Shown here one piece after another: positions 1 through 15,116 of a stretch of DNA of 31,763 nt. The stretch lies in UHGV virus genome UHGV-0245672; one strand, written 5' to 3'. Made by a program: the position numbers and the translations under genes. Position 1 is the stretch's first letter, and each line of letters starts with the position of its first letter. A model generated the notes under the pieces. That model had not been told where the DNA came from. It saw only the letters and a list, made by a program, of their open reading frames with translations, and did not search any database. This DNA is from a virus.

Positions 1-55
1 CATGAGGCGAAAAAGGCTAAAATCCAGGCATCATTTAACAGCTGGAGCATGGAAT

Positions 56-325
56 ATGCGAGTTCTGAAAATCGAATGCCCGGAATGCGGCTCAAAGGCT
101 GTTATTCGTAAAACAAACCGGAAGCACCGGCAGATTGCGGATATTTACTGCGCCTGTTCAGATGTGGAGTGTGGCCATACGTTTGTAATGAATCTGACGT
201 TCTCCCACACTCTCAGCCCCAGCGCAAAAACGGGTGATGCTATGGTGCAGAAAATATTGAATGCACTGTCACCCGGTCAGCGTCAAATGGCATTAGACCT
301 ACTGAAAGCGACTCCCGCCGCCTGA
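56..325 (+). CDS. ogr: Ogr/B/Delta-family zinc-finger late-gene transcriptional activator. The ORF is open from nt 2, so an upstream alternative start is possible.
   Basis: Translation carries a CPxCG...C.C..C.HTF Cys4 pattern like P2 Ogr / 186 B (IECPECGSKAV...YCACSDVECGHTF). Size is about 90 aa. A strong terminator follows. Confidence 0.75.
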   Translation: MRVLKIECPECGSKAVIRKTNRKHRQIADIYCACSDVECGHTFVMNLTFSHTLSPSAKTGDAMVQKILNALSPGQRQMALDLLKATPAA

Positions 326-624: not shown

Positions 625-2640
625 CTACAACCACCCCGGCCACAGCTCGTGCATTGGCTCGCTTCGTGTCTCTTGCAACCGGCCATTACGGTAAATCAAT
701 GCCACCTGGCCAAATCTCAAACCACTACCCCGTATGAGAATGGCTATTTCATCGTCAGAACCATCAAAACCCCGGCTGCGCAATTCCAGTTTTAACCGTC
801 TGCGGGTTCCACCCTCCGTACAGTTATTGACAGAACTCCAAGGGGCGGCGTTGCCGCCAGAAAAACCCGCCTCCGCTGACGCTTCGGCCAACTTCGCAAC
901 CTTCTGCCACTTCACCAGGCGCGTACATACCGCCGAATCTGGAACCAATGGAGAATAGACACCCTGAACGCGCTGCACGTCCTCTGCGTATTCATTGCCC
1001 TGCTCAGTGATTTCATAAGCCAGACGAACAACCAGATCACGGCGGGCAACCAGTGCGCCACCCTGCGCCTGGGTGTATGACGCCCAGCACCCCACATCCG
1101 CAGCGGCCAGCACAGCATCCATTTTGGGATTAGGCAGCTGTTGGTTACGCAGGCGGCGCAATTCACGCCAGACAGTAACCGGGGCACCGCCGATTTGTTG
1201 AAACTGGCGAATACGCCAGCGGGAAGCCCATGCGGTAACAGATTTGGCCATTTCTTTAATGTCCTCGCCTGTCTTCTCATCCTTTTCACCATCCATCGCG
1301 TAACCATCTATATTCTTTGAGATGTATTTAGCGATATAGCCAGTAGCGCTGCCTTTCTGCGGATCGATAGCTTTAAAGCAGAAGCGGGCTTTTCTTGCTG
1401 AATAGCTGCGCAGCTCATGTGCATCTTCCTGGCAAGCGTATGTGTGAATAACACGACGAATCGCTTTCGCATCCTCTGGACGCATAAACAGCAGAAGATG
1501 CCAGTGCGGTGTGCCATCGTGATGCGGCTCAACAACGCGGAACCCGAAACAACGCAAATCTTTACGCGACAGCGCTGCACGAATTTTCTGCCAGACGCCG
1601 CATAAATAGCGCTGGGTATCCTGTGGTGTGCATCCTTCCCATTGCGAAACAAAACCCCCTTTGCTGTACACCGCATGGAATCGCGATGGCGCGGTGATAG
1701 TGTAAAACTCACCAGCCAACCCTTCTTCATTGGCCATATCTTCAAATCCTCTCATTCTTACCATTAGCTCACAGCGACGGATCGCCGGATTAGCAACGCT
1801 GCGGTGCACCATGCTGTCCAGTGCAATACGCAGCCCTTCATCATTCAGCAGGTCAAACTTTTTAAAGAACTCAAGGTTCCGCTTTTTCTGGTCTATCCAT
1901 TCCCCGAGGGTTTTACGGGACACATAAGCACTGGCGGCTTTCTGTACCTGCCCCACGGCAATGGCCATATGCTCACGCTGCGTATCCCGCGCCCGCTTAA
2001 GACGCAGATACCACCATTCAGGTGCCATCATGCGGAGAATCCCGGACTCAGCCTTCCGTGTTTCCAGTTGCCCGCTATTGGCTTCATGTTCTGCCCAGTA
2101 TGGCGGCTGATTGTTCAGCATCAGAGAGCACGTGCATAAATGGCGGTAAGACTCCAGCGTACGGCGGCGCAACTCTGCGGCATCGTCAGTGCTGCCCACA
2201 AATTGATCGGTGAAGTCATAAAGTGACTGGGAGATCCAGCCAGATATCTGGCCAGCCAGTTTTTTAAGATCATGACGGTCTAGTGACGGCAGTCGCTCCA
2301 GCGACTTACCGAAAGGAAGATCAAGTGCATCAGCGGCCAGCTTGTAACGTGCGGCCACTTTGCGCAGACGTGGCAATACATTCTCACCGATAGTTTTACG
2401 CAGGAATGTATTGGCACGGCGACGCCCGTTACGGCCAGCCAGCAGCTTTTCGTAACGGTTGCCAAAATACCCGGCTAACCAGTCGGGTATCTCATGCAGG
2501 TACTGGGAACGCCATTCATAATCCTGTGGGTTAGCAGCCCACAGGCGGCGTTCTGTGATCGTCGCATCTGAAGGGGTACCAGCCGCAAAGGTTTCACGCC
2601 GCCAGGCATTGACGGCATGGTGTTGACCAGGCTCCAGCAT
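625..2640 (-). CDS. A: P2 gpA-family rolling-circle replication initiation protein. Alternative upstream start at 2676.
   Basis: 671-683 aa. Contains HWHLLLF (HUH-type) and GYIAKYISK (catalytic Tyr pair) motifs typical of P2 A / 186 A. The ATG at 2640 overlaps the stop of the upstream ORF (TGATATG coupling). Confidence 0.88.
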   Translation of the reverse strand: MLEPGQHHAVNAWRRETFAAGTPSDATITERRLWAANPQDYEWRSQYLHEIPDWLAGYFGNRYEKLLAGRNGRRRANTFLRKTIGENVLPRLRKVAARYKLAADALDLPFGKSLERLPSLDRHDLKKLAGQISGWISQSLYDFTDQFVGSTDDAAELRRRTLESYRHLCTCSLMLNNQPPYWAEHEANSGQLETRKAESGILRMMAPEWWYLRLKRARDTQREHMAIAVGQVQKAASAYVSRKTLGEWIDQKKRNLEFFKKFDLLNDEGLRIALDSMVHRSVANPAIRRCELMVRMRGFEDMANEEGLAGEFYTITAPSRFHAVYSKGGFVSQWEGCTPQDTQRYLCGVWQKIRAALSRKDLRCFGFRVVEPHHDGTPHWHLLLFMRPEDAKAIRRVIHTYACQEDAHELRSYSARKARFCFKAIDPQKGSATGYIAKYISKNIDGYAMDGEKDEKTGEDIKEMAKSVTAWASRWRIRQFQQIGGAPVTVWRELRRLRNQQLPNPKMDAVLAAADVGCWASYTQAQGGALVARRDLVVRLAYEITEQGNEYAEDVQRVQGVYSPLVPDSAVCTRLVKWQKVAKLAEASAEAGFSGGNAAPWSSVNNCTEGGTRRRLKLELRSRGFDGSDDEIAILIRGSGLRFGQVALIYRNGRLQETRSEPMHELWPGWL

Positions 2641-2641
2641 A

Positions 2642-2854
2642 TCAACCACGATTAACCCACTTCCGCCAGAAATCAATCAGGAAGGCCACAAACACGGCCG
2701 CTACCAGTGGTAGCCAGAAAACCGCACTCAGTGTGATTAACCCTAAATCCTCAGCATCGTGATCAAATTCGTCCTGGCACTCGCCCCATAAGAGAAAGGC
2801 GAATGTGATACAGGCAAACAAGGCATAAAAGCCGGTGATAATTTCCGCCATCAT
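2642..2854 (-). CDS. Small two-transmembrane-helix protein (70 aa), function unknown.
   Basis: Two hydrophobic helices (FYALFACITFAFLLW and VFWLPLVAAVFVAFLI). Translationally coupled between dam and A. Confidence 0.5.
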   Translation of the reverse strand: MMAEIITGFYALFACITFAFLLWGECQDEFDHDAEDLGLITLSAVFWLPLVAAVFVAFLIDFWRKWVNRG

Positions 2855-3720
2855 GCCAACACCACCCGAACATCGATCGCTGGGTTAGCAGGTGACTTCA
2901 GAATCAACTCTGCGGCCACTTTCTGGCTTGCAGCTGCTGCACCCACACTGCGTGGCGCATTTACCCGAACAGCTTCGAATCCTGCATACAGGTAATGCAC
3001 CATTTCTAGATCGCTGTTTGACGCGACAACCTTAATCCCACGCTCAGTCAGGCGGCGCAGCTTACGCGCCAGCCGTCCCTGATCCATGTGCGAAAAACCG
3101 TGCCCATAGTAAGCGGTGAAATTAGCGCTATCAGTCAGATAAGGCGGATCGCAGTAAACAACGTCATTCCCGTCCCGAACCAAATCGAGCGTTTCTGAAT
3201 AGTGGGCAGTAATGAACGTTGCGCGTTTCGCTTTTTCAGCAAATGCGCAGATTTCATCAGCAGGAAAGTAGGTTTTTTTGTACTTACCAAACGGGACATT
3301 GAACTGGCCACGGCGATTGTATCGGCACAGACCATTGAAGCAGTGACGGTTCAGGTAAAGGAAACGCGCCGCAGCTTCCACAGATTCAGAACCAAAGGAT
3401 TTACCGGACTGGTTGAAAGCATCACGCACTGCGTAATAGAAAATTGCCCGGTTTTCTTCATCGCCTAATGCACCGGCAGAAAACAAAGCCTCCAGTTCAA
3501 TAAGCAACGCATCTGTGTGATAAGCCATCGTCTTATACAGATTAACAAGGTCAGGATTCACATCAGCTATCAGATACTCGTCATAATCCGTATTCATCAT
3601 GACAGCACAGGAACCGGCAAAAGGTTCTATCAGGCGCTTACCCTCCGGCAGATGGGGAAGCAACTGCGGCATAAGGCGGGCTTTGCTTCCCACCCACTTA
3701 AGCGGAGTTTTTACTGCCAT
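2851..3720 (-). CDS. dam: Dam-like DNA N6-adenine methyltransferase (GATC type).
   Basis: Strong similarity to E. coli Dam: LKWVGSK, EPFAGS, LNRHCFNGLCRYNRRGQFNVPFGKYKK, and catalytic DPPY. Confidence 0.9.
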   Translation of the reverse strand: MAVKTPLKWVGSKARLMPQLLPHLPEGKRLIEPFAGSCAVMMNTDYDEYLIADVNPDLVNLYKTMAYHTDALLIELEALFSAGALGDEENRAIFYYAVRDAFNQSGKSFGSESVEAAARFLYLNRHCFNGLCRYNRRGQFNVPFGKYKKTYFPADEICAFAEKAKRATFITAHYSETLDLVRDGNDVVYCDPPYLTDSANFTAYYGHGFSHMDQGRLARKLRRLTERGIKVVASNSDLEMVHYLYAGFEAVRVNAPRSVGAAAASQKVAAELILKSPANPAIDVRVVLA

Positions 3721-3944
3721 ACTGCACCGCCTTTACTGCAAATCGCTGCGGCTTCTTCGCGGATTAACTCAACGATTTCCGTTGCGCTTAAACCTTCATT
3801 GGCTGCATGGGTGGCCAGCTTATCCAGACGGGTGGAACACAGATCAGCAGCAGCGGCTTTACCTTCCTGTGTAGCCTTGGTGAGCATAGCCAGCAGGTCA
3901 GTGCCTGATTTTGTTGCGGGTAAATCCTGACGTGTAATGTGCAT
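3711..3944 (-). CDS. Hypothetical phage early protein (77 aa).
   Basis: ORF overlapping the dam start, in the same operon orientation. Confidence 0.4.
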   Translation of the reverse strand: MHITRQDLPATKSGTDLLAMLTKATQEGKAAAADLCSTRLDKLATHAANEGLSATEIVELIREEAAAICSKGGAVWQ

Positions 3945-5036: not shown

Positions 5037-5540
5037 TCACATCAAGCCGGTGGCGTTAGCCGTCACCAGATCCACCGCTGCGGCCAGAACAGGCGCAGAC
5101 TGGATACGACTTTCAACGGTATAAGCCAGCACGGATAAGCTACGGATTGCATCGCGAGCGCGATCCAGAATTTGTGTACGGCGGGCGGCGGTCATATGAC
5201 CAGTTGATACGGCTTCCCCAGCAATTGCGCCCACACTGGCTGTGGCACTCAGTGCGCACAACTGCATGTTGCCTTCTGTGGCATTGTTCACCGGTACGGA
5301 TGGAAGGCAGTTAATCTGCCCCAGCATCCCATCCAGTAAACGCGCATCTTCGGTGTAATCCGTAATAGCTAATAGCTCGTCACAGGTTAAACGGTGCGGC
5401 TGTGCTGGATTCAACTTGTTGCGCAGGATCTGCGGCCTCATACCAACGGCAGCGGCTACATCTTCCAGATTGTGTTCAATTGCAAATGCTCGGCAAGCCG
5501 CATCAAAGTGCGCATGTTTAGAGGTCTGGTAATCAAACAT
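5037..5540 (-). CDS. cII: Phage regulatory protein CII (186 CII family; lysogeny establishment activator).
   Basis: MFDYQTSKHAHFDAACRAFA...LRNKLNPAQPH...LTCDELLAITDYTEDARLLDGMLGQINCLP closely parallels 186 CII. Confidence 0.85.
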   Translation of the reverse strand: MFDYQTSKHAHFDAACRAFAIEHNLEDVAAAVGMRPQILRNKLNPAQPHRLTCDELLAITDYTEDARLLDGMLGQINCLPSVPVNNATEGNMQLCALSATASVGAIAGEAVSTGHMTAARRTQILDRARDAIRSLSVLAYTVESRIQSAPVLAAAVDLVTANATGLM

Positions 5541-5923: not shown

Positions 5924-6505
5924 ATGAGCAAATTCCCTTTTGAACTAATCGGACATAGCAGCGAAGTTTTAGACCGAGTCATTGATGCATATGGTTTCAC
6001 TTCGAAATTAATGCTCGCAGACCATTTCGATATGGCCTCCAGCAGTTTGGCGGGTAGGTACAAACGTGGCGGCTTTCCTGCCGATATGGTTGTGAGATGT
6101 GTTGCTGAAACAGGGGCTAACCTCGAGTGGCTAGCAACCGGCCACGGGCGCAAGTTTAACGATGAAGAATTAGATATATTAAGAATCCCTCGCCGTAAAA
6201 TCGTGGATGGGCAACTATACGAGTCAGGCTTACTCATGTTGGACAAGGTAACTTTTTTACCTGGAAAACCATTACCTCAGAATCCTATCTGCGTAATTGA
6301 TAACAACATCCAATACATTGTCGAACAAAATTTCTCTGAGATTTATGACGATGATTGGCTGGTTGATGTAGAAGGTAAACACAGCATCAGAACTCTTACG
6401 CGTATACCTGTAAGGAAAGTTAGAGTTAGTGGTGTAGGAATGGCATTTGATTGCTCTATTGATGATATTGCTGTTATAGGTCGAGTTATTCTAACAATAA
6501 GATAA
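5924..6505 (+). CDS. cI: CI immunity repressor (186 CI family).
   Basis: 193 aa with VLDRVIDAYGF...LADHFDMASSSLAGRYKRG...ETGANLEWLATGHG...WLVDVEGKHSIRTLTRIP...FDCSIDDIAVIGRV, colinear with 186 CI. Confidence 0.88.
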   Translation: MSKFPFELIGHSSEVLDRVIDAYGFTSKLMLADHFDMASSSLAGRYKRGGFPADMVVRCVAETGANLEWLATGHGRKFNDEELDILRIPRRKIVDGQLYESGLLMLDKVTFLPGKPLPQNPICVIDNNIQYIVEQNFSEIYDDDWLVDVEGKHSIRTLTRIPVRKVRVSGVGMAFDCSIDDIAVIGRVILTIR

Positions 6506-6533: not shown

Positions 6534-6854
6534 ATGATAAAAAAATTGTTATTAAATTTACTAAAAGCATCAATCATATTTTTATTAATGATATGTGCTG
6601 TTGGGTTTAGCATAGACAAAAATGTATCAAGCACAGCGCGTTTTGTTCTGTCTCCATTGTTTTCAATATTATTGCTTTTCTTTTTTCACAAATGGATAAT
6701 TAAGCCATTGCTACTCAAGGCAAGATCAATAAAAAGTCACAGGAGCCATTTATCCATCATGTTGATTCTTCTAAAAATATTGCAAATCCGCTCACAGTCG
6801 ATCCTGTTACTGCTACACCTACTGATCAGGAGTTATTTAACAATAAGCCTGTGA
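6534..6854 (+). CDS. AT-rich ORF. The first ~57 aa encode two TM helices and the remainder is low-complexity. Probably the N-terminal part of a frameshifted gene that continues in the -1 frame (see 6704-7414).
   Basis: ATG at 6534 with an AAGGGA upstream. Two hydrophobic helices. Both frames are open across 6704-6854 around an A5 run (6731-6735). Confidence 0.4.
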   Translation: MIKKLLLNLLKASIIFLLMICAVGFSIDKNVSSTARFVLSPLFSILLLFFFHKWIIKPLLLKARSIKSHRSHLSIMLILLKILQIRSQSILLLLHLLIRSYLTISL

Positions 6855-7414
6855 TTGTGTGGAGCGGAACGACTAAGCCAGTTTCGTTTCGGATATTCTC
6901 AGATAAAGAACGTAAAGATGGTATTTTTACGCAATTAGAGATCCATAAAGATGGTGATTTTTATTTTTATCTAGCTGACCAATCCACTGGTGAGCTTACC
7001 TTAGTGAAAGAAAGAGAAATACAATCGCGAATTACAATTAATTCACAAACTTATGATTTCGTAGAATTGTGTAGAAAGGTCTTAAAAATCGACTTATCTG
7101 ATATGTTTGAGCTAGCAAAAGAAATACGTAAAGAAGCTAGCGAGCCATACGTAATTGCAAAATTCTCACCCATAACAACATCATTCACTTATTCATCATC
7201 TAATGGTAAAGAAAGAAGAACCGTTGATGTAGACCAAGTATTAAAAAATGGGAAAAATGACTATTATTTGTCAGGTTTTTGCCATTTAAGAAAGGAAAGA
7301 CGAACCTTTATTTCAAGCCGGTTCCAAACCATGTTAGTAACTGAGGGACACAAAAAATATTACTTCCATGACTGGTTGAAAAACGTTGCAGGGATTGATT
7401 ATGAGTGTCCGTAA
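6851..7414 (+). CDS. AT-rich cargo ORF with a WYL-like C-terminal domain. The listed GTG start is weak, and the frame is open from 6704, so it is probably fused to the upstream 2-TM segment by a frameshift.
   Basis: C-terminus DYYLSGFCHLRKERRTFISSRFQTMLV resembles the WYL-domain signature (WYL.a.C....R.FRl.RI). Codon usage is AT-rich, unlike the flanking cI and int. Confidence 0.55.
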   Translation: MIVWSGTTKPVSFRIFSDKERKDGIFTQLEIHKDGDFYFYLADQSTGELTLVKEREIQSRITINSQTYDFVELCRKVLKIDLSDMFELAKEIRKEASEPYVIAKFSPITTSFTYSSSNGKERRTVDVDQVLKNGKNDYYLSGFCHLRKERRTFISSRFQTMLVTEGHKKYYFHDWLKNVAGIDYECP

Positions 7415-8441
7415 ACTTCCTAACGGCGACTGGATCGCCGACTTCTATACCGTCAACCGCAGCAATGGTAAGAACGGGAAGCGTATACGTAAAAAATTTG
7501 CCACTAAGGGAGAAGCCCTAGCATTTGAGAATCACACGCTTCAAAAGGTAGATAGTGCGCCGTGGTTAGGTGAAGGGAAAGATAAACGAACTTTAATCGA
7601 CCTGATTACAATGTGGTATGAGCGCCACGGCGTAGCTCTGCGCAACGGTCAAAAGCGTAAAGACGCAATGACCTGGGCGGCTGAGTGTATGGGGTTTCCG
7701 CTGGCCACTGAGTTTAATGCTCAACTGTTTACAGCATACCGCGCCAAAAGGCTTGAAGGGCATTATGCCCGTACTAACCGTGTTACTAAGGTTTCACCTA
7801 AAACAATGAACCTTGAACACGCTTATTTTCTGGCTATGTTCAATGAGCTGAAACGGATCGGTGAGTGGTCAGCCCCTAACCCACTGGAGAACGTCAGACA
7901 GTACCGCACAGATGAAACTGAAATGGCATTTCTCACTGCTGAAGAAATTGATCGGCTTTTACTGGAATGCAAACGCAGCAAAGTAAGCTACTTAGAGTTA
8001 GTCGTAAAAATCTGTCTGGCGACTGGCGCAAGATGGAATGAAGCGGCAACACTCAAAAGCTCCCAAATTGCTGGCGGAAAAGTCACCTTCATAAAAACAA
8101 AAGGGAAAAGAAACCGCACCATTCCCTTAGATGATGAACTTCTGGCTGAACTACCTGAAACAAAAGGCGCTCTGTTTCCAAAGCCCTGCTATAACGCATT
8201 CCGTTCGGCTCTGGAACGTGCTGGCATTGAACTACCAGCAGGTCAGCTTACCCATGTACTACGCCATACATTTGCCAGCCACTTTATGATGAACGGCGGC
8301 AATATACTGGTTCTTCAAAAAATCCTCGGTCATGCCGATATCACCATGACAATGCGTTACGCGCATTTCGCCCCAAGCCACCTTGAAGAAGCTGTGCGAC
8401 TTAACCCATTAAAATGTCGCAAAATTGTCGCGACAGCTTAG
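7401..8441 (+). CDS. int: P2-family tyrosine integrase. Alternative start at 7386.
   Basis: MSVRKLPNGDW...KTKGKRNRTIPL...HVLRHTFASHFMMNGGNILVLQKILGHADITMTMRYAHFAPSHLEEAVRLNPL is colinear with P2 Int, including the R..H..R..Y catalytic residues. Confidence 0.92.
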   Translation: MSVRKLPNGDWIADFYTVNRSNGKNGKRIRKKFATKGEALAFENHTLQKVDSAPWLGEGKDKRTLIDLITMWYERHGVALRNGQKRKDAMTWAAECMGFPLATEFNAQLFTAYRAKRLEGHYARTNRVTKVSPKTMNLEHAYFLAMFNELKRIGEWSAPNPLENVRQYRTDETEMAFLTAEEIDRLLLECKRSKVSYLELVVKICLATGARWNEAATLKSSQIAGGKVTFIKTKGKRNRTIPLDDELLAELPETKGALFPKPCYNAFRSALERAGIELPAGQLTHVLRHTFASHFMMNGGNILVLQKILGHADITMTMRYAHFAPSHLEEAVRLNPLKCRKIVATA

Positions 8442-8680
8442 AAATACTGCCGAATACTCACGAACATTAACTAACGTAACTTATTGATAACACTGTAAGT
8501 TACTGTTTTTCGTAGATAGTTAATGCTTTATAATATAACTAATTATATATATTTTTTACACAATAAAATCAATGGCATACAACAAAACAAAACCATTAAA
8601 TGTCGCATAAGTGTCGCACTAAAACCAATACATCTACAATGTGCTTGTTTTTTTAATGTCGCAGATTTAATCTATTGCGG
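8408..8680. repeat. Probable attP region. There are direct repeats of an ATGTCGCA-containing motif (CCATTAAA(A)TGTCGCAnAAnTGTCGC) at about 8410-8437, 8594-8622 and 8656-8664, consistent with integrase arm-type binding sites.
   Basis: TGTCGC occurs five times within 270 bp at the 3' end of int and just downstream. P2-family attP lies next to the int 3' end. Confidence 0.5.
8476..8510 (+). terminator. Hairpin plus T-run downstream of int (GTAACTTA-N12-TAAGTTAC-TGTTTTT). Either an int terminator or a dyad within attP.
   Basis: 8-bp perfect inverted repeat followed by TTTTT. Confidence 0.4.
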
Positions 8681-8781
8681 CCCAAAAGTTAACTTTAATA
8701 AATTTCTAAGTTCCAATACTGAAATTTGATAGGTATTTTGCTCTTTAAAAAGGAAGTAAACTAAAATCGATTTTGATTAAT

Positions 8782-8811
8782 TTACATGCCACTCATTAAC
8801 CCTGCTATATT
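8782..8811 (+). promoter_or_regulatory. Candidate sigma70 promoter for the AIPR-like gene (TTACAT-18-TATATT), followed by the Shine-Dalgarno AGGAGAGAGAG at 8833-8843.
   Basis: Good -35/-10 hexamers with 18-nt spacing, about 45 nt upstream of the ATG at 8854, in an AT-rich leader. Confidence 0.45.
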
Positions 8812-8853
8812 TTTGTAGGAAAAGTTAAATCTCAGGAGAGAGAGAGTATTTAT

Positions 8854-10590
8854 ATGAGCTCAAGTAGAGAAATAGCAATACATGCTTTAAAAAGATATCT
8901 TACCAAAAACTATTCATCGCATATTGATATGAGCAATGTTGGTAGTAAAGCGACCGACAGAGAATATAATCTTATGTCAAGATGCATTGCTGCGCTATCT
9001 ATAAAATATCATAATACAGAATTAGATAATGAGATCTGCGCTGATAGCGTTTGTGACGGAAGTGATGATCATGGTGTTGATGCAATCTATGTTAATCATG
9101 ATAAGAGAACGGTCACAGTTGTTCAATCTAAGTTTGATTCTAGTGGAAATGGATCAATTGGGCGAAGCGAAATAAATGATTTCCTAAATTCCTGTAAAGA
9201 AATCCTTTTAGAAAAATATGATTTATTTAATGCTAGATTCCGCCGTTCGGAAAGTGACTTAGATAATGCCTATGATGCTTCATATAAATATATTTTTGCA
9301 TTTTCTTATAGTGGAGGAAACCAATTAAGCCATGATGTTCAAACTATAATTGAACAAAATAGAAAAGAGCTTAATTATGATATTGGGCCAGATGCAACCA
9401 CCATATCGATTCTAAATTTGGATGATCTTAGAGACTTCATCAGCAATCCAAATTCAATCAAAATAGATATGGATGATGTTGAGGTTTTACAATATGGGCT
9501 AAGCGACCATCCTTTACCTGCAGTTCATGGTATTGTCACTGGTGATATTGTTGCACACTGGTGGGAAAATTATGGTGATAGACTATTTGAGAAAAATATC
9601 AGGGGTGGGCTTGGAGATGTTTCGGAAGTAAACCAAGCAATAAGAGATACATTAATAAACCGTCCAGAGCTTTTCTATTATTTTAACAATGGCATTACCA
9701 TTCTTGTTGATTCTTATGCACCAAGAAGACGTAATAATATAAATAGAAGAGAATCAGGCGGATTCGACTTTAAAAACATGAGTGTAATTAACGGCGCTCA
9801 AACTATAAGCACTATTGGCAAGGCTTATCAGTCTGGTGATGCAACAGATGATATTCTGAGTAAAGTAAAAATATCATGCCGGTTTATAAAATCTTTAATT
9901 AATAATAGTGATGACGCTACAGATGATGATGTAGATGATATTTCATTAGACATTACCATAGCAAATAACAATCAAAATAAAGTTACATCTAGAGATTTTG
10001 CATCCAAAGATCCAATACAACTCGAACTAAGAAAATCAATTTCTTTTGAACATCCATATCAGTATGAGATAAAAAGAAGCGACACTCCCCAAGCGAATCC
10101 ATCACCATATATTATTGACATGGATGATGCACTCAATGCTCTAGTCTGCTGTAACTTCTCATTAAGAAACATTGCAAACTTAAAGTCCAACAGAGGTCGT
10201 TTTTTCGAAAGTCTAACAGGCCCATTATATAAAAGCGTATTTAACCCGAGCATCACAAGTGTCAAAGTTATAAATGCAGTAAATGTTTATAGAGAATGCT
10301 TAAATCATTTATTACATTTAGAAAAGACATGCACTGTAAAGAGAGAACAAAAGATTGTAATACATGGTCGCTATGTTTTAATTTCTATTGCAATGAATAA
10401 ACATCCTAATATTTTGAATTCATCCTCAGTTATAGCTATGACTTCCCTACCTAATTTTACTCCGACACTGGATGATGCTTTTGATACTATTACTACCTAT
10501 ATTGATAACCATTACTCTTCAAGTCATATGCCTCGCTTCTTTGAAAACCAGCAGAAACTAAAAGAGATTTACGCTCTTTTTAGCATGTAA
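8854..10590 (+). CDS. Candidate abortive-infection / defence protein resembling the AIPR family (578 aa). It is AT-rich cargo with its own promoter and terminator.
   Basis: The long ORF is strongly AT-rich, in contrast to the GC-rich phage backbone. N-terminal GVDAIYV...TVTVVQSKF resembles a PD-(D/E)xK-like core. FYYFNNGITIL and INGAQT motifs are recalled from AIPR-family Abi proteins. Location is int/att-proximal. Confidence 0.55.
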   Translation: MSSSREIAIHALKRYLTKNYSSHIDMSNVGSKATDREYNLMSRCIAALSIKYHNTELDNEICADSVCDGSDDHGVDAIYVNHDKRTVTVVQSKFDSSGNGSIGRSEINDFLNSCKEILLEKYDLFNARFRRSESDLDNAYDASYKYIFAFSYSGGNQLSHDVQTIIEQNRKELNYDIGPDATTISILNLDDLRDFISNPNSIKIDMDDVEVLQYGLSDHPLPAVHGIVTGDIVAHWWENYGDRLFEKNIRGGLGDVSEVNQAIRDTLINRPELFYYFNNGITILVDSYAPRRRNNINRRESGGFDFKNMSVINGAQTISTIGKAYQSGDATDDILSKVKISCRFIKSLINNSDDATDDDVDDISLDITIANNNQNKVTSRDFASKDPIQLELRKSISFEHPYQYEIKRSDTPQANPSPYIIDMDDALNALVCCNFSLRNIANLKSNRGRFFESLTGPLYKSVFNPSITSVKVINAVNVYRECLNHLLHLEKTCTVKREQKIVIHGRYVLISIAMNKHPNILNSSSVIAMTSLPNFTPTLDDAFDTITTYIDNHYSSSHMPRFFENQQKLKEIYALFSM

Positions 10591-10608
10591 ACATAGAATA
10601 AATTAAAA

Positions 10609-10640
10609 GCACCCTCTATATAAGAGGGTGCACAATTTTA
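10609..10640 (+). terminator. Rho-independent terminator of the AIPR-like gene.
   Basis: GCACCCTCT-ATATAA-GAGGGTGC stem-loop followed by ACAATTTT, 19 nt after the stop codon. Confidence 0.7.
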
Positions 10641-11135
10641 CAAAAAGCTTAATGTGAATAATTTTCAGTTTTTAAATCTCCAAAAAATCTCGCAACCCTT
10701 ATGTGCACTGGGGACATGCTCGATAACATGCTAATCATAGCAACCAATTAAGATCCAAAAATTTAAACAAAAATAAATAATAAACTTATTTTTCAACATG
10801 ATACAAAACACATCCATTTTAATATGATCTAATAAACTGAAAAATGCTGAAATCCTTTTCAATCTTTTCAGTTCACGTTCTCCGCTAATCCCCCAGTAAT
10901 GGCGCTCTCCGGGTTGGTCATTTGAAGAAAAAGAAAACTGAAAAATTTTATCGATCCAGAAACCGCAGGCGGGTGCGGTGTAGTGCCGTTTTTGTCTGTG
11001 AAGTATTTCTTTTGTCAGCATGTAGAGCCGTCAGTACCTCGCTGTGCATTTGATCTTATTGAGGTGCCTCGAGTGGTATCTGAGCATTGCAATGCGTACA
11101 GTGTGCGTTCTGTGCCGTCTGTTAACAGGCACAAA

Positions 11136-11166
11136 AAAACCCGCGTTATGCGGGTTAGCGGAATAC
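11136..11166 (-). terminator. Rho-independent terminator (minus strand) of the 110-aa secreted-protein gene.
   Basis: On the minus strand, AACCCGCATAACGCGGGTT followed by TTTTTTT. Confidence 0.65.
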
Positions 11167-11197
11167 TCTATTTATATCAACCGATATGAAGCTATGG

Positions 11198-11530
11198 TTA
11201 TCGGCAGGCTTTCTGACCAACATAGTATGCAATTGAACGGTCAATTATTGGTGCCATATTAGGATCTGCTGCTGAGTTATTCATTTGCTCGATTGTGTCA
11301 CCACTTCCGAGATACTTCACTGTCGAGGCTTTACAGTCGTACAAACGCTTCGAATACGACACTCCGGATGGTCCCTCTCTCTTAGTTGTTATAGTGGCCA
11401 TGTCGCCGCTACGCGTCTTATCTAAGACCGTGTAACTAGCTTTCGAATCTGTTGGCACAGAAAAAACTTCAGCGGCTAACACAGTGAATGAAACTGCTGC
11501 GCCTACAGCTAATACGATGAAACGCTTCAT
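11198..11530 (-). CDS. Secreted/periplasmic small protein (110 aa), moron of unknown function.
   Basis: Classical Sec signal peptide MKRFIVLAVGAAVSFTVLA-AEV. Mature part of about 90 aa with two Cys. Own Shine-Dalgarno (AAAGGAAAAGGGA) and own terminator. Sits in the accessory island. Confidence 0.65.
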   Translation of the reverse strand: MKRFIVLAVGAAVSFTVLAAEVFSVPTDSKASYTVLDKTRSGDMATITTKREGPSGVSYSKRLYDCKASTVKYLGSGDTIEQMNNSAADPNMAPIIDRSIAYYVGQKACR

Positions 11531-11635
11531 ATCCCTTTTCCTATCCTTTGAGCCAGTAATAATCCTATCGCAACAATCCTAACAAGGAACTGAGGAAACG
11601 ACAAAGCCCGCATTATGCGCGGGCTGATGGGATGG

Positions 11636-13339
11636 TCAGGCGATTATTTTCTGGTACTTACTCCGGGTCTGCCCTGCCTTCTCTGCCGTCTGAGTAAATG
11701 CTCCGGCATTGGTTGGCGTACCAACACTGGGGTGTGAATGGCTCGCACATTGCTGCGCCAGCTCGGCCAGTAAATCAATGGTGTCCAGCATCATGGCCAG
11801 CGTGTTGACGCTCTCACTGCCAATATGGACGGTTGGTCCCATAATCTGCTGACCGCCCGCCGCCACCGATTTACGTAATGCGGCAATCTTTTCTGTCAGG
11901 GTTCCCCCCACATCAACATCCACGGCACCGGCTACTTTCGTGGATTGTTTGCCGGTAATATCGGTTTCGTCATTTCCTTCAATGCTGGCCAACCTGTTGC
12001 CTTTCACGGCCTGGCTATAATCACCGGCACTGACCTGCTGAATGGCTCCGGCCATCAGGGTTGAGGTACCCAGAACCGTGGTCTTATCCGTGGCTTTAAC
12101 CGTTGTTTCACGGCTGACCAGCTCGCGCTGTTCCGTATCGGCTTTGACCGTCCGCGCCATCGATGTTTCGCTGATGGTCTGATCGGTCTGCCTCACCCAG
12201 TCGCCAGCCTGGGTAACACGTTGCGACACTTCCGCCCGCTGCTGTTGCAGCTGCTCGCCGGGTTTAACATCCGGCAGACTGGTACCATCCGGCAGTGTCT
12301 GCCTGATAAACGGTTTATCCGGGCGTCCACCGGTAAACGCAACTTCAACCAGCGTCCCTTCAGGCGGGAACTGGAACATACCCGAATCATTACCAGCCAT
12401 AGGTACCGGCAGCGGCACCGCAGAATATACCGGCGTCTGATTATCCGGGTTACCGTCTGCATCAAGCAGCTGCACATCAACGGCATAGCGCGGCCGGAAC
12501 GGATCGGAAAAATTACCACTTTTCACGGTCTCGCTGGGTGCCACCACTCTGGCCAGTTTTGGCAGATGCAGCCCGGAAGCCAGTTCCGGGTAATGACTTT
12601 CAATCTGGCGCTGTGCCGGTGTTTTCTGTAATGGCTGACCTGTTGCGCGGTTTCTGGGTGTCCAGGTGACGGCCATTGTGTCATTGGTCAGATGAACTTT
12701 GGTCACGCGCTCCCCGTTCAGCTCCACACCCGGCCGCAGACTCTGGATCACCGGCAGCGTCATGGAATTACCGCCAGCAGCCCCCTGACTGAACTCTGCC
12801 GGGATATCGACCGGACGACCGGCAAACATCGCTTTTTCCGCTCCGCCCACATACAGGGAACCATCCGGCAGCTGGTACCAGATGTAATCCGGGATACTGA
12901 ACGCCCTGCCCAGATTATTCAGCAGCTGATAACCCGTGCCGTTATGGGTGAAATGGGGGATCGGTTTATCGCTGTAAGGAGCATCCGGCACACTGACAGC
13001 TATTCCGCTGTTTTCCTCCAGCCAGCTGGCTACCTTGCGCAAAGTGGGATGCTGAAATGAACATGGCCACATCCTTTCAAATACGCCGACCAGCTCGCGC
13101 ACAAACAGACGCTGAAAACCGTTTTCGGCGGGTTGTGCGCGTTCCACGTAGCCGGTAAACCAGCGCAAAAGGAGATCGGAGTATCCCACATCCAGCCGCA
13201 CCAGTTTCCCGGTGTAATCCGTGGCTGTCTGTGCAGTGATAAATCCCCGGCCGCAGCTGTTCAGCTCCAGTGCCAGACTGGCATCAGCCAGGTGAACTTC
13301 ATCCGTTGAAAGGTACAGGCGTTTAACTGGTTTCATCAT
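11636..13339 (-). CDS. Baseplate hub-spike fusion protein (gpD / Mu gp44-like N-terminal region plus gpV / VgrG-like beta-helical spike C-terminal region), putative.
   Basis: 567 aa, the last gene of the tail operon and translationally coupled to the upstream ORF. The C-terminal 200 aa is a T/V/G-rich repetitive beta-strand region ending HSHPSVGTPTNAG, typical of spike tips. Size roughly equals hub plus spike. A terminator hairpin lies at 11605-11628. Confidence 0.5.
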   Translation of the reverse strand: MMKPVKRLYLSTDEVHLADASLALELNSCGRGFITAQTATDYTGKLVRLDVGYSDLLLRWFTGYVERAQPAENGFQRLFVRELVGVFERMWPCSFQHPTLRKVASWLEENSGIAVSVPDAPYSDKPIPHFTHNGTGYQLLNNLGRAFSIPDYIWYQLPDGSLYVGGAEKAMFAGRPVDIPAEFSQGAAGGNSMTLPVIQSLRPGVELNGERVTKVHLTNDTMAVTWTPRNRATGQPLQKTPAQRQIESHYPELASGLHLPKLARVVAPSETVKSGNFSDPFRPRYAVDVQLLDADGNPDNQTPVYSAVPLPVPMAGNDSGMFQFPPEGTLVEVAFTGGRPDKPFIRQTLPDGTSLPDVKPGEQLQQQRAEVSQRVTQAGDWVRQTDQTISETSMARTVKADTEQRELVSRETTVKATDKTTVLGTSTLMAGAIQQVSAGDYSQAVKGNRLASIEGNDETDITGKQSTKVAGAVDVDVGGTLTEKIAALRKSVAAGGQQIMGPTVHIGSESVNTLAMMLDTIDLLAELAQQCASHSHPSVGTPTNAGAFTQTAEKAGQTRSKYQKIIA

Positions 13340-13884
13340 TAACCCAAAGCATCATTGACGGGTTTAAGCACCCGTTTTTCAAACCACGTCAGTTTTTCTT
13401 CATCTTCCCCGGCACTCTGGCCACCAGGCTGTCCCGCATTACCGGCCGTCTGTTTTTTGGCTGACGTTTTGCCTGTTGCCCGGGCTTCCCGCTTTTCCTG
13501 CACGCTGATATGTTCTGCCAGGGTGAACGTGACCAGCCAGGCCATTTTCCCGTCCTGCTGCGGGGCATCAAGCGTCCCGCTGAATGTCGCCTCGCGAAAA
13601 TTCACGGCTCTGGCCACTTCATGCGCCACACGGTATTTCTGGCGGTTGCCTCCGGCATCCGTGGCGCTGGCCAGCTCAAAAATACGCTTCAGGATCTCCG
13701 GGCTTTTAAACGGAATTTCGCCACTGATACGCAGCTCTTTCCCTTTTGCCCCCTGTTCTGATTTGGTTGTGGCGCTTGTCTGGCCGGACTGGTCTTTATC
13801 CTGAAACTGCTGCGATACGGTCACGCGCATGTTTTTCAGCTGGATAGCCTCTCCATTAAGCGCCAGCGTTGGGATCGAAGTCAT
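13339..13884 (-). CDS. Tail-operon protein of unknown role (181 aa; Q/K/G-rich low-complexity segments).
   Basis: Translationally coupled on both sides (overlaps 13856-13884 and the ATGA at 13339). GC-rich like the phage backbone. Confidence 0.45.
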   Translation of the reverse strand: MTSIPTLALNGEAIQLKNMRVTVSQQFQDKDQSGQTSATTKSEQGAKGKELRISGEIPFKSPEILKRIFELASATDAGGNRQKYRVAHEVARAVNFREATFSGTLDAPQQDGKMAWLVTFTLAEHISVQEKREARATGKTSAKKQTAGNAGQPGGQSAGEDEEKLTWFEKRVLKPVNDALG

Positions 13885-14581
13885 GAATCATTCCCTTTAT
13901 TCCATCCAGATTGTCACCGACCAGCATCACCGCCGCGGTATATACGGCTGACGGTTGCGGGATATCCTTTACCAGTTCCAGCAACGTGGTGGCAGTATCG
14001 CCGGTGCTGGTAAACACCCATGCTCTGGCACTTTTTCCCTGCAAATCATTCAGCCCGCTGGCCACATCACTGATCAGGCTGTCGCGCAGCTGCGCGAACT
14101 CACCCAGTTGTTGCTTTAATCCGTCCAGGCTGAATCCCACACTGGCCGCTTTTTGTGCCTGGCTGACAGCCGCCGCAGACAATGCCGCCCTGCTGGTTGG
14201 CACAGACAGCGGAATGGCCACCGGCAACCCCGCCCCGGCTTTAGCGGGGATCTGCATTTTTTCGATGGCCAGCGCCGCAGCGGATTGTGCCAGGCGCTTG
14301 ACCTGCGTGAATGCCGGTGCCGGGAAAACATCAACCAGACCGTTGAGACGGGTCATAAAATTCTCATGCGTCTGGCCTGTCACCATCATGATCATCACAT
14401 CGGCATTCCCGCCCGTTCCGGCCAGCCTTTCAGCAAGATAGCGGACGGCATTCACCGGGCTGAGATATGCCCCGTTATCCGTCTGCTGCCCCAGGCCGTT
14501 TATCCACGGATGCGCCGGAACAACGGAACAATTCAGCGCGGCCAGTGAGTCAGTAAAAGCCAGACGTGCTTCACGCCACAT
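13856..14581 (-). CDS. Tail-operon protein of unknown role (241 aa).
   Basis: Overlaps the tail-fibre assembly gene by 11 nt and the next ORF by 29 nt. No recognisable family motif. Confidence 0.45.
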   Translation of the reverse strand: MWREARLAFTDSLAALNCSVVPAHPWINGLGQQTDNGAYLSPVNAVRYLAERLAGTGGNADVMIMMVTGQTHENFMTRLNGLVDVFPAPAFTQVKRLAQSAAALAIEKMQIPAKAGAGLPVAIPLSVPTSRAALSAAAVSQAQKAASVGFSLDGLKQQLGEFAQLRDSLISDVASGLNDLQGKSARAWVFTSTGDTATTLLELVKDIPQPSAVYTAAVMLVGDNLDGIKGMIHDFDPNAGA

Positions 14582-15104
14582 CAGGCACCTCCGGCCAGTT
14601 AATATCTGGCGCTGTGCTCAGATCCAGACGGCGCAAAGCAGTGCGGTAAGCGCGTAGTGTTGCCAGTTCTGTTTCCTCATCGGATGAAATATCACCGTCT
14701 TTTTGCGCATCCTCCAGCCAATCAATACGCGTTGTAACCTCCGCCATACGGTTGCCACGTTCCGCTTCAGCGTCAGCCAGATAATTGCGGATTTGCTGTA
14801 ATTTGCCGTCTTTATAAAACCAGTCATCACCCAGCGTGACGCGCAAATTAGCTTTTGTGGCCGGAAGCTCGACAACACTCAGATTGACCGGGAAAAGCGC
14901 ATGAATATTTGTCGTGAACGTTCTTACACGACCATCATCGTCATATCCAATTTTCAGCGTTTTTGATTCATCAAATAATTCAATAACGTCATACCAGTCA
15001 TTACCTTTATCATCCTGCAAAAACATAACATTCTGACCATCTATAATTCTTGGCCTGTCAGTAGTGTCTGGTGTATATGGGATGAATTTGCCAAAGCGTT
15101 GCAT
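14571..15104 (-). CDS. Tail fibre assembly protein (P2 gpG / lambda Tfa family).
   Basis: C-terminal ...TLRAYRTALRRLDLSTAPDINWPEVP is typical of the Tfa family. Immediately downstream of the tail-fibre gene. Confidence 0.8.
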   Translation of the reverse strand: MQRFGKFIPYTPDTTDRPRIIDGQNVMFLQDDKGNDWYDVIELFDESKTLKIGYDDDGRVRTFTTNIHALFPVNLSVVELPATKANLRVTLGDDWFYKDGKLQQIRNYLADAEAERGNRMAEVTTRIDWLEDAQKDGDISSDEETELATLRAYRTALRRLDLSTAPDINWPEVPDVA

Positions 15105-15116
15105 TTTTATTTACCT

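What the first reader, a model, noticed from the sequence alone, without database searches (positions are those of the whole stretch)
8854..10590. AT-rich single-gene AIPR-like putative abortive-infection cargo in the int/att-proximal hotspot
This 578-aa ORF has strikingly lower GC than the rest of the phage. It has its own sigma70-like promoter (8782-8811) and a clean terminator (10609-10640), so it behaves as an independent moron. It sits between attP/int and the tail operon. In P2 that slot holds ogr, whereas here the ogr-like gene is at the left end next to A. The protein has a PD-(D/E)xK-like N-terminal core (GVDAIYV...TVVQSKF) and FYYFNNGITIL / INGAQT motifs that I associate with the poorly characterised AIPR Abi family. 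No partner genes are present. It would therefore be a single-protein sensor-effector expressed from the prophage to protect the lysogen.
Basis: partly seen in the sequence, partly recalled or inferred. Interest (0 to 1): 0.72.

Follow-up and report, generated by a model that had tools for sequence, protein, structure and literature searches.

The report
Prophage-borne AbiU/AIPR anti-phage nuclease gene
This is a real, intact, horizontally acquired gene of the already catalogued AbiU/AIPR anti-phage defence family, sitting alone in a variable cargo slot next to the attachment site of a P2-type prophage; it is an ordinary example of a known kind whose molecular mechanism is still unsolved.

Summary
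The 578-aa ORF at 8854..10590 (+) is real. Its GC is 33.6% (GC3 24%) against 50% for the window, and it is under purifying selection (61-62 synonymous vs 7 non-synonymous codon differences from its nearest variants). It matches Pfam AIPR (110 bits, cutoff 25), the PADLOC AbiU model nearly full length, and PHROG 1841 ('abortive infection', E 1e-167). The identical protein is in RefSeq as 'AIPR family protein'.

No conserved partner gene was found. The att-to-baseplate slot is a genuine swap site: related prophages carry acetyltransferase or DprA cassettes there.

AbiU in P2-like phages, and its PD-(D/E)xK nature, are already published. A 32%-identical P4 AIPR gave no protection in one screen; a Vibrio AbiU did protect. 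The promoter is plausible but unproven. The 'clean terminator' is a strong hairpin whose U-tract faces the opposite strand.

The parts
8854..10590 (+). AbiU1/AIPR-family gene, 578 aa, single-gene cargo
   Evidence: ORF. Pfam AIPR. PADLOC AbiU. PHROG 1841. Identical RefSeq protein 'AIPR family protein'. Purifying selection.
9046..9453 (+). N-terminal PD-(D/E)xK (FokI/Mrr-like) nuclease domain, about aa 65-200. The putative catalytic motif D68, D72, D76 ... Q91-x-K93 is encoded at 9055-9132.
9586..10191 (+). AIPR domain (aa 245-446) carrying invariant NNG (278-280), NGxQ (313-316) and NxQ (372-374). Presumed sensor or nucleic-acid-binding module.
   Evidence: Pfam match. Invariant columns. No confident structural neighbour. 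The sensor role is inferred.
10192..10587 (+). C-terminal all-helical domain (aa 447-578), confidently modelled, function unknown
8781..8811 (+). Candidate sigma-70 promoter: TTTACA, 19 nt, TGcTATATT (extended -10)
   Evidence: Read from sequence. Lies on the phage side of attP and is conserved in variants. Not called by the scanner and not above chance. Unproven.
8834..8846 (+). Purine-rich Shine-Dalgarno-like run AGGAGAGAGAGAG ending 7 nt before the ATG
   Evidence: Read from sequence.
10609..10631 (.). Strong 9-bp hairpin 18 nt after the stop codon. Proper U-tract only on the minus strand; weak on the gene's own strand.
   Evidence: Scanner. Folding -17.2 kcal/mol, z -5.7. Sequence.
8413..8662 (.). 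attP region: crossover core at about 8520-8550, flanked by AATGTCGC repeats at 8413, 8599 and 8655 (likely integrase arm sites)
   Evidence: Alignment of the window with integrated copies next to mntR. Three of the five window-wide AATGTCGC matches fall here. The arm-site role is inferred.
11198..11530 (-). Conserved 110-aa signal-peptide gene that forms the fixed right-hand border of the variable slot. Backbone gene, not a partner.
   Evidence: Present next to every alternative cargo in related prophages. PHROG 13843.

Best explanation
The gene is a stand-alone member of the AbiU1/AIPR anti-phage defence family. It was acquired horizontally and sits in a variable cargo slot between attP and the baseplate genes of an ESSI-2-like (Quadragintavirus, Peduoviridae) temperate phage. 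In the lysogen it is the first gene inside attL, next to the host gene mntR.

Shown:
- Family membership.
- Single-gene organisation.
- An N-terminal PD-(D/E)xK nuclease fold of the FokI/Mrr/MspJI type with a conserved D...D...QxK motif.
- A conserved AIPR middle domain and a helical C-terminal domain that resemble no solved structure.
- Purifying selection on the gene.
- Cargo swapping at this slot.

Inferred mechanism: the AIPR and C-terminal module recognises an infection-specific cue, either a feature of phage DNA or RNA or a phage protein. That recognition licenses the N-terminal nuclease, possibly by dimerisation as in FokI-type domains. The nuclease then cuts nucleic acid and blocks a superinfecting phage early. 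This would fit the delayed phage transcription reported for lactococcal AbiU.

Whether the outcome is host suicide (true abortive infection) or direct restriction is open. Transcription from its own promoter in the lysogen is also inferred.
For: Family: Pfam AIPR E 3e-31, 109.7 bits vs cutoff 25. PADLOC AbiU E 1.8e-26 covering aa 53-554. PHROG 1841 E 1.7e-167 full length. Identical protein named 'AIPR family protein' on 48 contigs. The family has 8,161 cluster representatives.

Stand-alone: the only recurring neighbours in P2-like contigs are core phage genes. No neighbour family occurs in more than 5 of 80 genomes.

Selection and transfer: 61-62 synonymous vs 7 non-synonymous codon changes; GC3 24%.

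Hotspot: the same flanks hold a serine acetyltransferase, an AAA ATPase plus acetyltransferase, or DUF6680 + hypothetical + DprA in related prophages.

Defence role of the family: lactococcal AbiU lowers plaquing efficiency and delays phage transcription. A Vibrio AbiU was used as a validated defence with a phage counter-protein, Surt. AbiU was detected in both P2-like phages and P4 satellites.
Against: No experiment exists on this protein.

A 32%-identical single-gene AIPR from a P4 satellite, cloned with its native promoter, is listed only among 'additional tested systems', not among the validated ones, against eight coliphages.

Lactococcal AbiU gives only 10- to 100-fold protection.

The promoter is not statistically supported, and the hairpin is a weak terminator on the gene's own strand.

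The sensor role of the AIPR domain is pure inference: no structural or sequence relative with a known ligand was found.

Alignment of D76, Q91 and K93 onto the FokI catalytic residues was not inspected residue by residue.
Confidence: 0.7

Rival explanations
1. The gene is a neutral or currently useless hitch-hiker. It is an intact AIPR gene that gives no measurable protection in this host or against phages the host meets.
For: The P4-borne AIPR (pFR77, 32% identical) was tested and not validated. Only 1 of 5,426 complete E. coli genomes carries this gene.
Against: There is strong purifying selection (61-62 synonymous vs 7 non-synonymous). The gene stays intact in E. coli strain 573, whose prophage has lost much of its structural region. 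The identical protein is spread over 48 contigs in several Citrobacter and Escherichia species. An eight-phage panel is small, as its authors say.
Confidence: 0.12
2. The nuclease serves the phage itself rather than the lysogen. Possible roles are degrading host or competitor DNA during lytic growth, acting against satellites, or acting as an addiction module that stabilises the prophage.
For: Its position at the prophage edge and its outward independence from the late operons do not exclude expression after induction. Phage and satellite hotspots are arenas of conflict between mobile elements. AIPR genes also occur as the main cargo of 5.6-kb plasmids.
Against: The gene lacks any linked antitoxin or immunity gene. 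It lies on the opposite strand to the adjacent tail genes. Most homologues are chromosomal and spread across many phyla, outside phages.
Confidence: 0.1
3. It is one component of a multi-gene system. Candidates are an MZA-type system (as MzaE), an R-M-like pair with the phage's own D12-class adenine methylase, or an AbiU1/AbiU2 pair.
For: There are partial matches to MzaE models. A minority of family members sit next to HsdM, HsdS or other methylases, as noted in the literature. The phage encodes a D12 methyltransferase at 2851..3720.
Against: The NCBIfam MzaE score is 73 bits against a cutoff of 1050, and only aa 227-394 align. No Mza-like, HEPN or other conserved neighbour is present here or in relatives. 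The methylase is 5 kb away in the conserved early operon of ESSI-2-like phages that lack AIPR. AbiUi alone suffices in Lactococcus.
Confidence: 0.05

Closest known systems
AbiU (AbiU1/AbiUi) of Lactococcus lactis, as modelled in PADLOC and DefenseFinder
   Same: Single protein of about 570-590 aa. Near full-length match to the AbiU profile. N-terminal FokI-like PD-(D/E)xK fold, the same structural neighbour as published for AbiUi. AIPR middle domain.
   Different: Distant in sequence: a profile-level match only, with no Lactococcus hit by tblastn among the plasmids listed. It is carried by a Gram-negative P2-type prophage rather than a lactococcal plasmid. There is no AbiU2-like (HEPN) second gene. 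The phenotype is untested.
[quoted passage not shown] 2022, PMC9122126; NAR 2026, PMC13586616)
   Same: Same family and architecture: 32% identity to the P4 AIPR pFR77 and 30-37% to AIPR genes in P2-like viral contigs. Same logic of single-gene cargo in a swap site of a Peduoviridae element.
   Different: Those copies sit in the cos-proximal slot between gpA and portal gpQ, 42-106 bp from the portal gene. This one sits between attP and the baseplate genes of an ESSI-2-like phage. The 2026 hotspot list covers that slot only loosely, as 'downstream of GpL'.
Nuclease domains of FokI (Type IIS), MspJI/AspBHI (modification-dependent Type IV), and the Mrr-like effector domains of LlaBIII, HamA and Avs4
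   Different: The nuclease is N-terminal here. The partner module is the AIPR and helical domain, which resembles none of their recognition domains. There is no helicase, ATPase or methylase in the protein.
MzaE of the MZA system and DndB (other AIPR-related proteins)
   Same: They share the AIPR core region. DndB's N-terminal domain is said to belong to the AbiU1/AIPR family (PMC3506569).

Membership tests
Pfam AIPR (PF10592) | Score above the curated gathering threshold | tested here: met
   109.7 bits vs cutoff 25, E 3e-31, aa 245-446. All 37 aligned relatives also match.
AbiU (PADLOC PDLC02357; DefenseFinder AbiU) | Near full-length match to the AbiU protein profile | tested here: met
   E 1.8e-26, 91.4 bits, protein aa 53-554 on profile positions 35-515 of 537. 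PADLOC's own cut-off is not given by the tool, and DefenseFinder could not be run.
AbiU | Single-gene system (AbiUi alone confers resistance) | tested here: met
   No conserved neighbour in identical loci, in P2-like contigs or in 80 genomes. The convergent 96-aa ORF is probably non-coding: 80% nucleotide vs 63% amino-acid identity.
AbiU | N-terminal PD-(D/E)xK nuclease-like domain (published for AbiUi/AbiU-1) | tested here: met
AbiU | Phenotype: reduced plaquing efficiency with delayed phage transcription | not testable with these tools
   Known only from Dai et al. 2001 as summarised in PMC13064643.
PHROG 1841 ('Abi alpha-like abortive infection', moron category) | Full-length profile match | tested here: met
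   E 1.7e-167, aa 10-577 on profile positions 2-563 of 567.
MzaE (MZA system) | NCBIfam equivalog score and presence of the other Mza genes | tested here: not met
   73.3 bits vs cutoff 1050, with only aa 227-394 aligned. The neighbours are int/attP and phage tail genes.
P2 cos-proximal defence hotspot (gpA-gpQ; Rousset 2022) | Location between replication gene A and portal gene Q | tested here: not met
   Here the gene lies between attP and the baseplate genes. Gene A is at 625..2676 and Ogr at 2..325. More distant AIPR homologues do occupy the gpA-gpQ slot.
Prophage variable cargo slot (hotspot in the general sense) | Conserved flanks with different cargo in related elements | tested here: met
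   The arrangement mntR/att - cargo - 110-aa gene - baseplate holds AIPR, a serine acetyltransferase, an AAA ATPase plus acetyltransferase, or DUF6680 + hypothetical + DprA. ESSI2_ev129 has an acetyltransferase after int.
ParB/Srx-like (DndB DGQHR, DUF262) fold for the AIPR domain | Structural or profile similarity of the central domain to ParB-like proteins | tested here: inconclusive
HEPN (AbiU2-type) | HEPN domain in the protein or in an adjacent gene | tested here: not met
   No HEPN family among the Pfam hits of any of the 37 members. There is no adjacent gene. HEPN belongs to AbiU2, not AbiU1.

The most novel reading that the evidence does not exclude
The AIPR and C-terminal helical module, which has no detectable structural relative, may be a new kind of infection sensor. 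It would bind a specific phage nucleic-acid feature or protein and switch on a FokI-like nuclease by dimerisation. AbiU proteins would then be single-chain, sensor-gated restriction-like enzymes rather than classical suicide systems. In addition, the att-to-baseplate slot of ESSI-2-like (Quadragintavirus) prophages may be a defence hotspot not yet described as such.
Probability: 0.3. Interest if true: 0.45.

Novelty: already known. Interest (0 to 1): 0.2.

Why it matters
It adds one more well-delimited example to the picture that P2-type prophages exchange single-gene defence cargo at a few fixed slots. It also shows that the AbiU/AIPR family, which is abundant (over 8,000 sequence clusters across many phyla, phages, satellites and small plasmids), still lacks a solved structure, a known trigger and a demonstrated enzymatic activity.

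This compact, self-contained gene, with clear candidate catalytic residues and a defined native upstream region, would be a convenient enterobacterial model for working out how AbiU functions. As a discovery it is not new: the annotation, the family, the nuclease prediction and the presence in P2-like phages are all already on record.

Tried and rejected
1. Sequence search of the PDB, with the protein alone and with a 37-sequence profile, found no relative.

4. MzaE membership is rejected: 73 bits vs 1050.

5. Partner-gene searches in identical loci, in 32 viral contigs and in 80 genomes found none. A minority of loci have R-M genes nearby.

6. The convergent 96-aa ORF at 10731..11021 was considered as a partner and rejected. 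It has no family hits, gene callers do not call it, and its amino-acid identity (63%) is lower than its nucleotide identity (80%).

7. The 110-aa gene was considered as a partner and rejected. It is a constant flank whatever the cargo.

8. A HEPN domain, claimed for 'AIPR proteins' in one 2012 paper, is not present. HEPN belongs to AbiU2.

9. The original AbiU paper (PMC93294) is not held, so the AbiU phenotype is cited second-hand.

10. The promoter scan neither supports nor excludes the proposed promoter.

Full report
OBSERVATION

The ORF at 8854..10590 (+) is present as described: ATG start, 578 aa. It lies in the most AT-rich stretch of the window, with GC 0.30-0.34 over 8501-11000 against 0.50-0.59 for most of the phage. 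The gene is 33.6% GC with third-position GC of 24%. Core genes (A, baseplate, tape measure, sheath, capsid, terminase) are 49-57% GC with GC3 49-64%, and the whole window is 50.1%.

A 578-codon open frame in such stop-rich DNA is not chance, and the gene is under purifying selection. Against its two nearest variants (an IMG/VR contig and E. coli strain 573, each 96% identical in DNA), 61-62 of 68-69 differing codons are synonymous and only 7 change the protein.

SURROUNDINGS

The window is an ESSI-2-like temperate phage of the family Peduoviridae, genus Quadragintavirus. Its structural half is about 86% identical to Escherichia phage ESSI2_ev129.

Gene order near the finding:
- CII at 5037..5540 (-)
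- CI-type repressor at 5924..6505 (+)
- two small low-GC ORFs at 6534..7414 (+)
- integrase at 7386..8441 (+)
- the AIPR gene
- a 110-aa signal-peptide gene at 11198..11530 (-)
- baseplate and tail genes from 11636 onwards (-)

The identical protein is found on at least 24 contigs. In every place shown, the gene is the first gene of an integrated prophage, immediately next to the host gene mntR. Aligning the window with those integrated copies shows that they diverge to the left of about 8520 and are identical to the right. The attP crossover core therefore lies at about 8520-8550. It is flanked by AATGTCGC repeats at 8413, 8599 and 8655: three of only five matches in the window, against 1.3 expected by chance. 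These are probably integrase arm sites (inferred). The 'int/att-proximal' placement is correct. In the lysogen the gene reads inward from attL.

EXPRESSION SIGNALS

Upstream there is TTTACA (8781-8786), a 19-nt spacer, and TGcTATATT, an extended -10 whose hexamer is at 8806-8811. A purine-rich Shine-Dalgarno-like run ends 7 nt before the ATG (sequence). The scanner did not call this promoter because its spacer rule is 16-18 nt. Promoter-like matches in this AT-rich region are no more common than in shuffles (11 vs 13 expected). The promoter is plausible, not demonstrated.

The 'clean terminator' is a genuine strong hairpin at 10609-10631: 9-bp stem, -17.2 kcal/mol, z = -5.7. The scanner called it on the minus strand, where UUUUAAUUUA follows. 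On the gene's own strand the tail is ACAAUUUUAC. It may act bidirectionally, but for this gene it is not a textbook intrinsic terminator.

The convergent 96-aa ORF at 10731..11021 is probably not a gene. It has no family hits, public gene calls skip it, and its protein identity to the variant locus (63%) is lower than its DNA identity (80%).

FAMILY

- Pfam AIPR (PF10592) matches aa 245-446 with 109.7 bits against a cutoff of 25.
- The PADLOC AbiU model aligns aa 53-554 to profile positions 35-515 of 537, E 1.8e-26.
- PHROG 1841, a phage protein family labelled 'Abi alpha-like abortive infection mechanism' in the moron category, matches end to end with E 1.7e-167.
- MzaE models match only the AIPR core: 73 bits against an NCBIfam cutoff of 1050. 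It is therefore not MzaE.

The exact sequence is in RefSeq as 'MULTISPECIES: AIPR family protein [Citrobacter freundii complex]', and 99%-identical copies are named the same in E. coli and several Citrobacter species.

The family is large. A profile search of 1.84 billion cluster representatives found 8,161 at E <= 1e-3 and 979 at E <= 1e-30, mostly with the same 550-600 aa full-length architecture. Members occur in Cyanobacteria, Actinobacteria, Proteobacteria, Bacteroidota, Firmicutes, Acidobacteria and others.

STRUCTURE

No solved structure is related by sequence or by Foldseek. An AlphaFold2 model built on 37 homologues is confident: mean pLDDT 83.3, pTM 0.69.

All of these are PD-(D/E)xK nuclease domains of restriction or defence enzymes.

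In 37 relatives D68, D72, D76, Q91 and K93 are invariant. In 138 much more diverse representatives (24-35% identity), D68, D72, G74 and D76 are invariant and Q91 and K93 are conserved in at least 90%. Sub-threshold Mrr_cat_2 hits appear in 6 of 37 members, and Mrr_cat_2 is the top hit for the isolated N-terminus, E 0.047. That these residues are catalytic is inferred from the fold and the motif; I could not inspect the superposition.

This reproduces what is published. A 2026 review superimposes AbiUi on FokI and says it 'resembles a nuclease' (PMC13064643). A 2024 preprint lists AbiU-1 among single-gene PD-(D/E)xK systems.

The invariant residues of this part are polar: N278-N279-G280, N313-G314-x-Q316, N372-x-Q374 and Y404. 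Near-invariant are R250, T282, T317, N375, D381 and K444. That pattern fits a ligand- or nucleic-acid-binding surface, which is an inference.

PARTNERS AND CONTEXT

There is no partner gene. In the loci with the identical protein, the neighbours are mntR on one side and the 110-aa gene and baseplate genes on the other.

In nine P2-like viral contigs, AIPR homologues of 30-37% identity lie between replication gene A and the portal gene, 42-106 bp from the portal in eight of them. The only recurring neighbours there are core phage genes. This is the cos-proximal hotspot of Rousset et al.

In 80 genomes from different species, no neighbour family recurs in more than 5 loci. The few that do are Type I HsdM and HsdS, other DNA methylases and an AAA_15/21 ATPase. 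That matches the reported occasional linkage of AbiU1/AIPR to R-M systems.

The slot itself is a true swap site. With the same flanks (mntR/att on the left; the 110-aa gene and baseplate genes on the right), related E. coli prophages carry:
- a serine acetyltransferase (four sampled genomes)
- an AAA ATPase plus an acetyltransferase
- DUF6680 + hypothetical + DprA
- in one genome of 5,426, this AIPR gene

ESSI2_ev129 has the acetyltransferase there.

WHAT IS KNOWN ABOUT FUNCTION

Lactococcal AbiU lowers plaquing efficiency 10- to 100-fold and delays phage transcription, and AbiUi alone suffices.

A Vibrio AbiU was cloned with its native promoter and used as a defence against which a phage counter-protein, Surt, was validated.

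Rousset et al. list AIPR among the cargo of both P4 and P2 hotspots. However, their cloned single-gene AIPR from a P4 satellite (pFR77) appears only in the table of additional tested systems, not among the seven P4-hotspot systems the text reports as protective. Its protein is 32% identical to ours with the same motifs.

A 2026 survey of thousands of P2-like prophages reports AbiU in both P2 and P4. It lists hotspots at gpA-gpQ, int-att, int-primase and downstream of gpL.

In the phage collection, only 20 of 50,697 records have any homologue, at 27% identity or less. Several of these are P2-like Klebsiella and Salmonella phages already annotated AIPR or abortive infection.

Small 5.6-kb plasmids of Citrobacter, Klebsiella and Salmonella carry a 36%-identical full-length copy.

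MECHANISM

Best-supported reading, confidence about 0.7: a stand-alone defence protein in which the AIPR and helical module senses an infection cue and licenses the N-terminal FokI/Mrr-like nuclease.

- Shown: family, fold, conserved motif, single-gene status, selection, cargo swapping.
- Inferred: the sensor role, activation (possibly by dimerisation), the substrate, expression in the lysogen, and whether the outcome is cell death or direct restriction.

Rivals are a functionless hitch-hiker (0.12), a function for the phage itself (0.10) and membership of a multi-gene system (0.05). Reasons are given in their entries.

NOVELTY AND VERDICT

It is not new, for four reasons:
- the protein is already annotated
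- current defence finders would label it AbiU
- the nuclease prediction is published
- AbiU in P2-like phages has been catalogued

The modest additions here are three. First, the precise slot: att-to-baseplate in an ESSI-2-like phage, distinct from the classic gpA-gpQ hotspot. Second, the family-wide invariance of the nuclease motif. Third, the finding that the AIPR and C-terminal part has no structural relative. Interest 0.2.

Noticed in passing
window 6534..6854 (+) and 6851..7414 (+): [quoted passage not shown] In ESSI2_ev129 the integrase follows the repressor directly. The 187-aa protein has a WYL domain (Pfam E 3e-6; weak PADLOC WYL hits). The 106-aa protein has no hit in Pfam, PHROGs, PADLOC or NCBIfam. 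The DNA has no match in 5,426 complete E. coli genomes. The cI-int interval is a described defence hotspot in Vibrio P2-related phages. This is a possible uncharacterised two-gene system.
   Followed up: partly
window 11198..11530 (-): A 110-aa protein with an N-terminal signal peptide, followed by its own terminator-like hairpin at 11156-11138. It matches PHROG 13843 (unknown function) but no Pfam or NCBIfam family. It is conserved as the fixed border of the cargo slot in hundreds of E. coli prophages. A secreted prophage protein of unknown role.
   Followed up: partly
L001 (E. coli strain 573, NZ_CP102853.1) 9333-16361: The only complete E. coli genome with this gene carries it in a decayed prophage. 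A partial tail-protein pseudogene abuts a partial replication-endonuclease pseudogene, so most structural genes are deleted. The AIPR gene is nevertheless intact with only 7 amino-acid changes. This looks like retention of a defence gene after prophage decay.
   Followed up: partly
L123 (E. coli EC101, NZ_CP196707.1) 742-3774: In the same att-proximal slot this relative carries a three-gene cassette on the opposite strand: a DUF6680 protein, a 437-aa hypothetical protein and a DprA-like protein. It is reminiscent of the DprA-containing P2-hotspot system discussed by Rousset et al.. I did not analyse it further.
   Followed up: no
plasmid hits H44-H48 (e.g. NZ_CP056368.1, 5,631 bp): Very small (5.6 kb) plasmids of Citrobacter, Klebsiella and Salmonella carry a full-length AIPR gene 36% identical to this one. 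It takes up about a third of each plasmid.
   Followed up: no
window 8413-8662: AATGTCGC occurs three times around the attP core, at 8413, 8599 and 8655. Related GTGTCGC/TTGTCGC copies lie beside them. Only two other matches occur in the whole window. These are probably arm-type integrase binding sites.
   Followed up: partly
window 2851..3720 (-): The phage encodes a D12-class N6-adenine DNA methyltransferase (Pfam E 8.5e-66) in its early operon. ESSI-2-like phages without AIPR also have a methyltransferase in that operon, so it is unlikely to be tied to the nuclease. An interplay was not tested.
   Followed up: no
window 10731..11021 (-): A 96-aa ORF convergent with the AIPR gene, ending near the shared hairpin. 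It has no family hits, and its protein conservation (63%) is lower than its DNA conservation (80%), so it is probably non-coding.
   Followed up: yes
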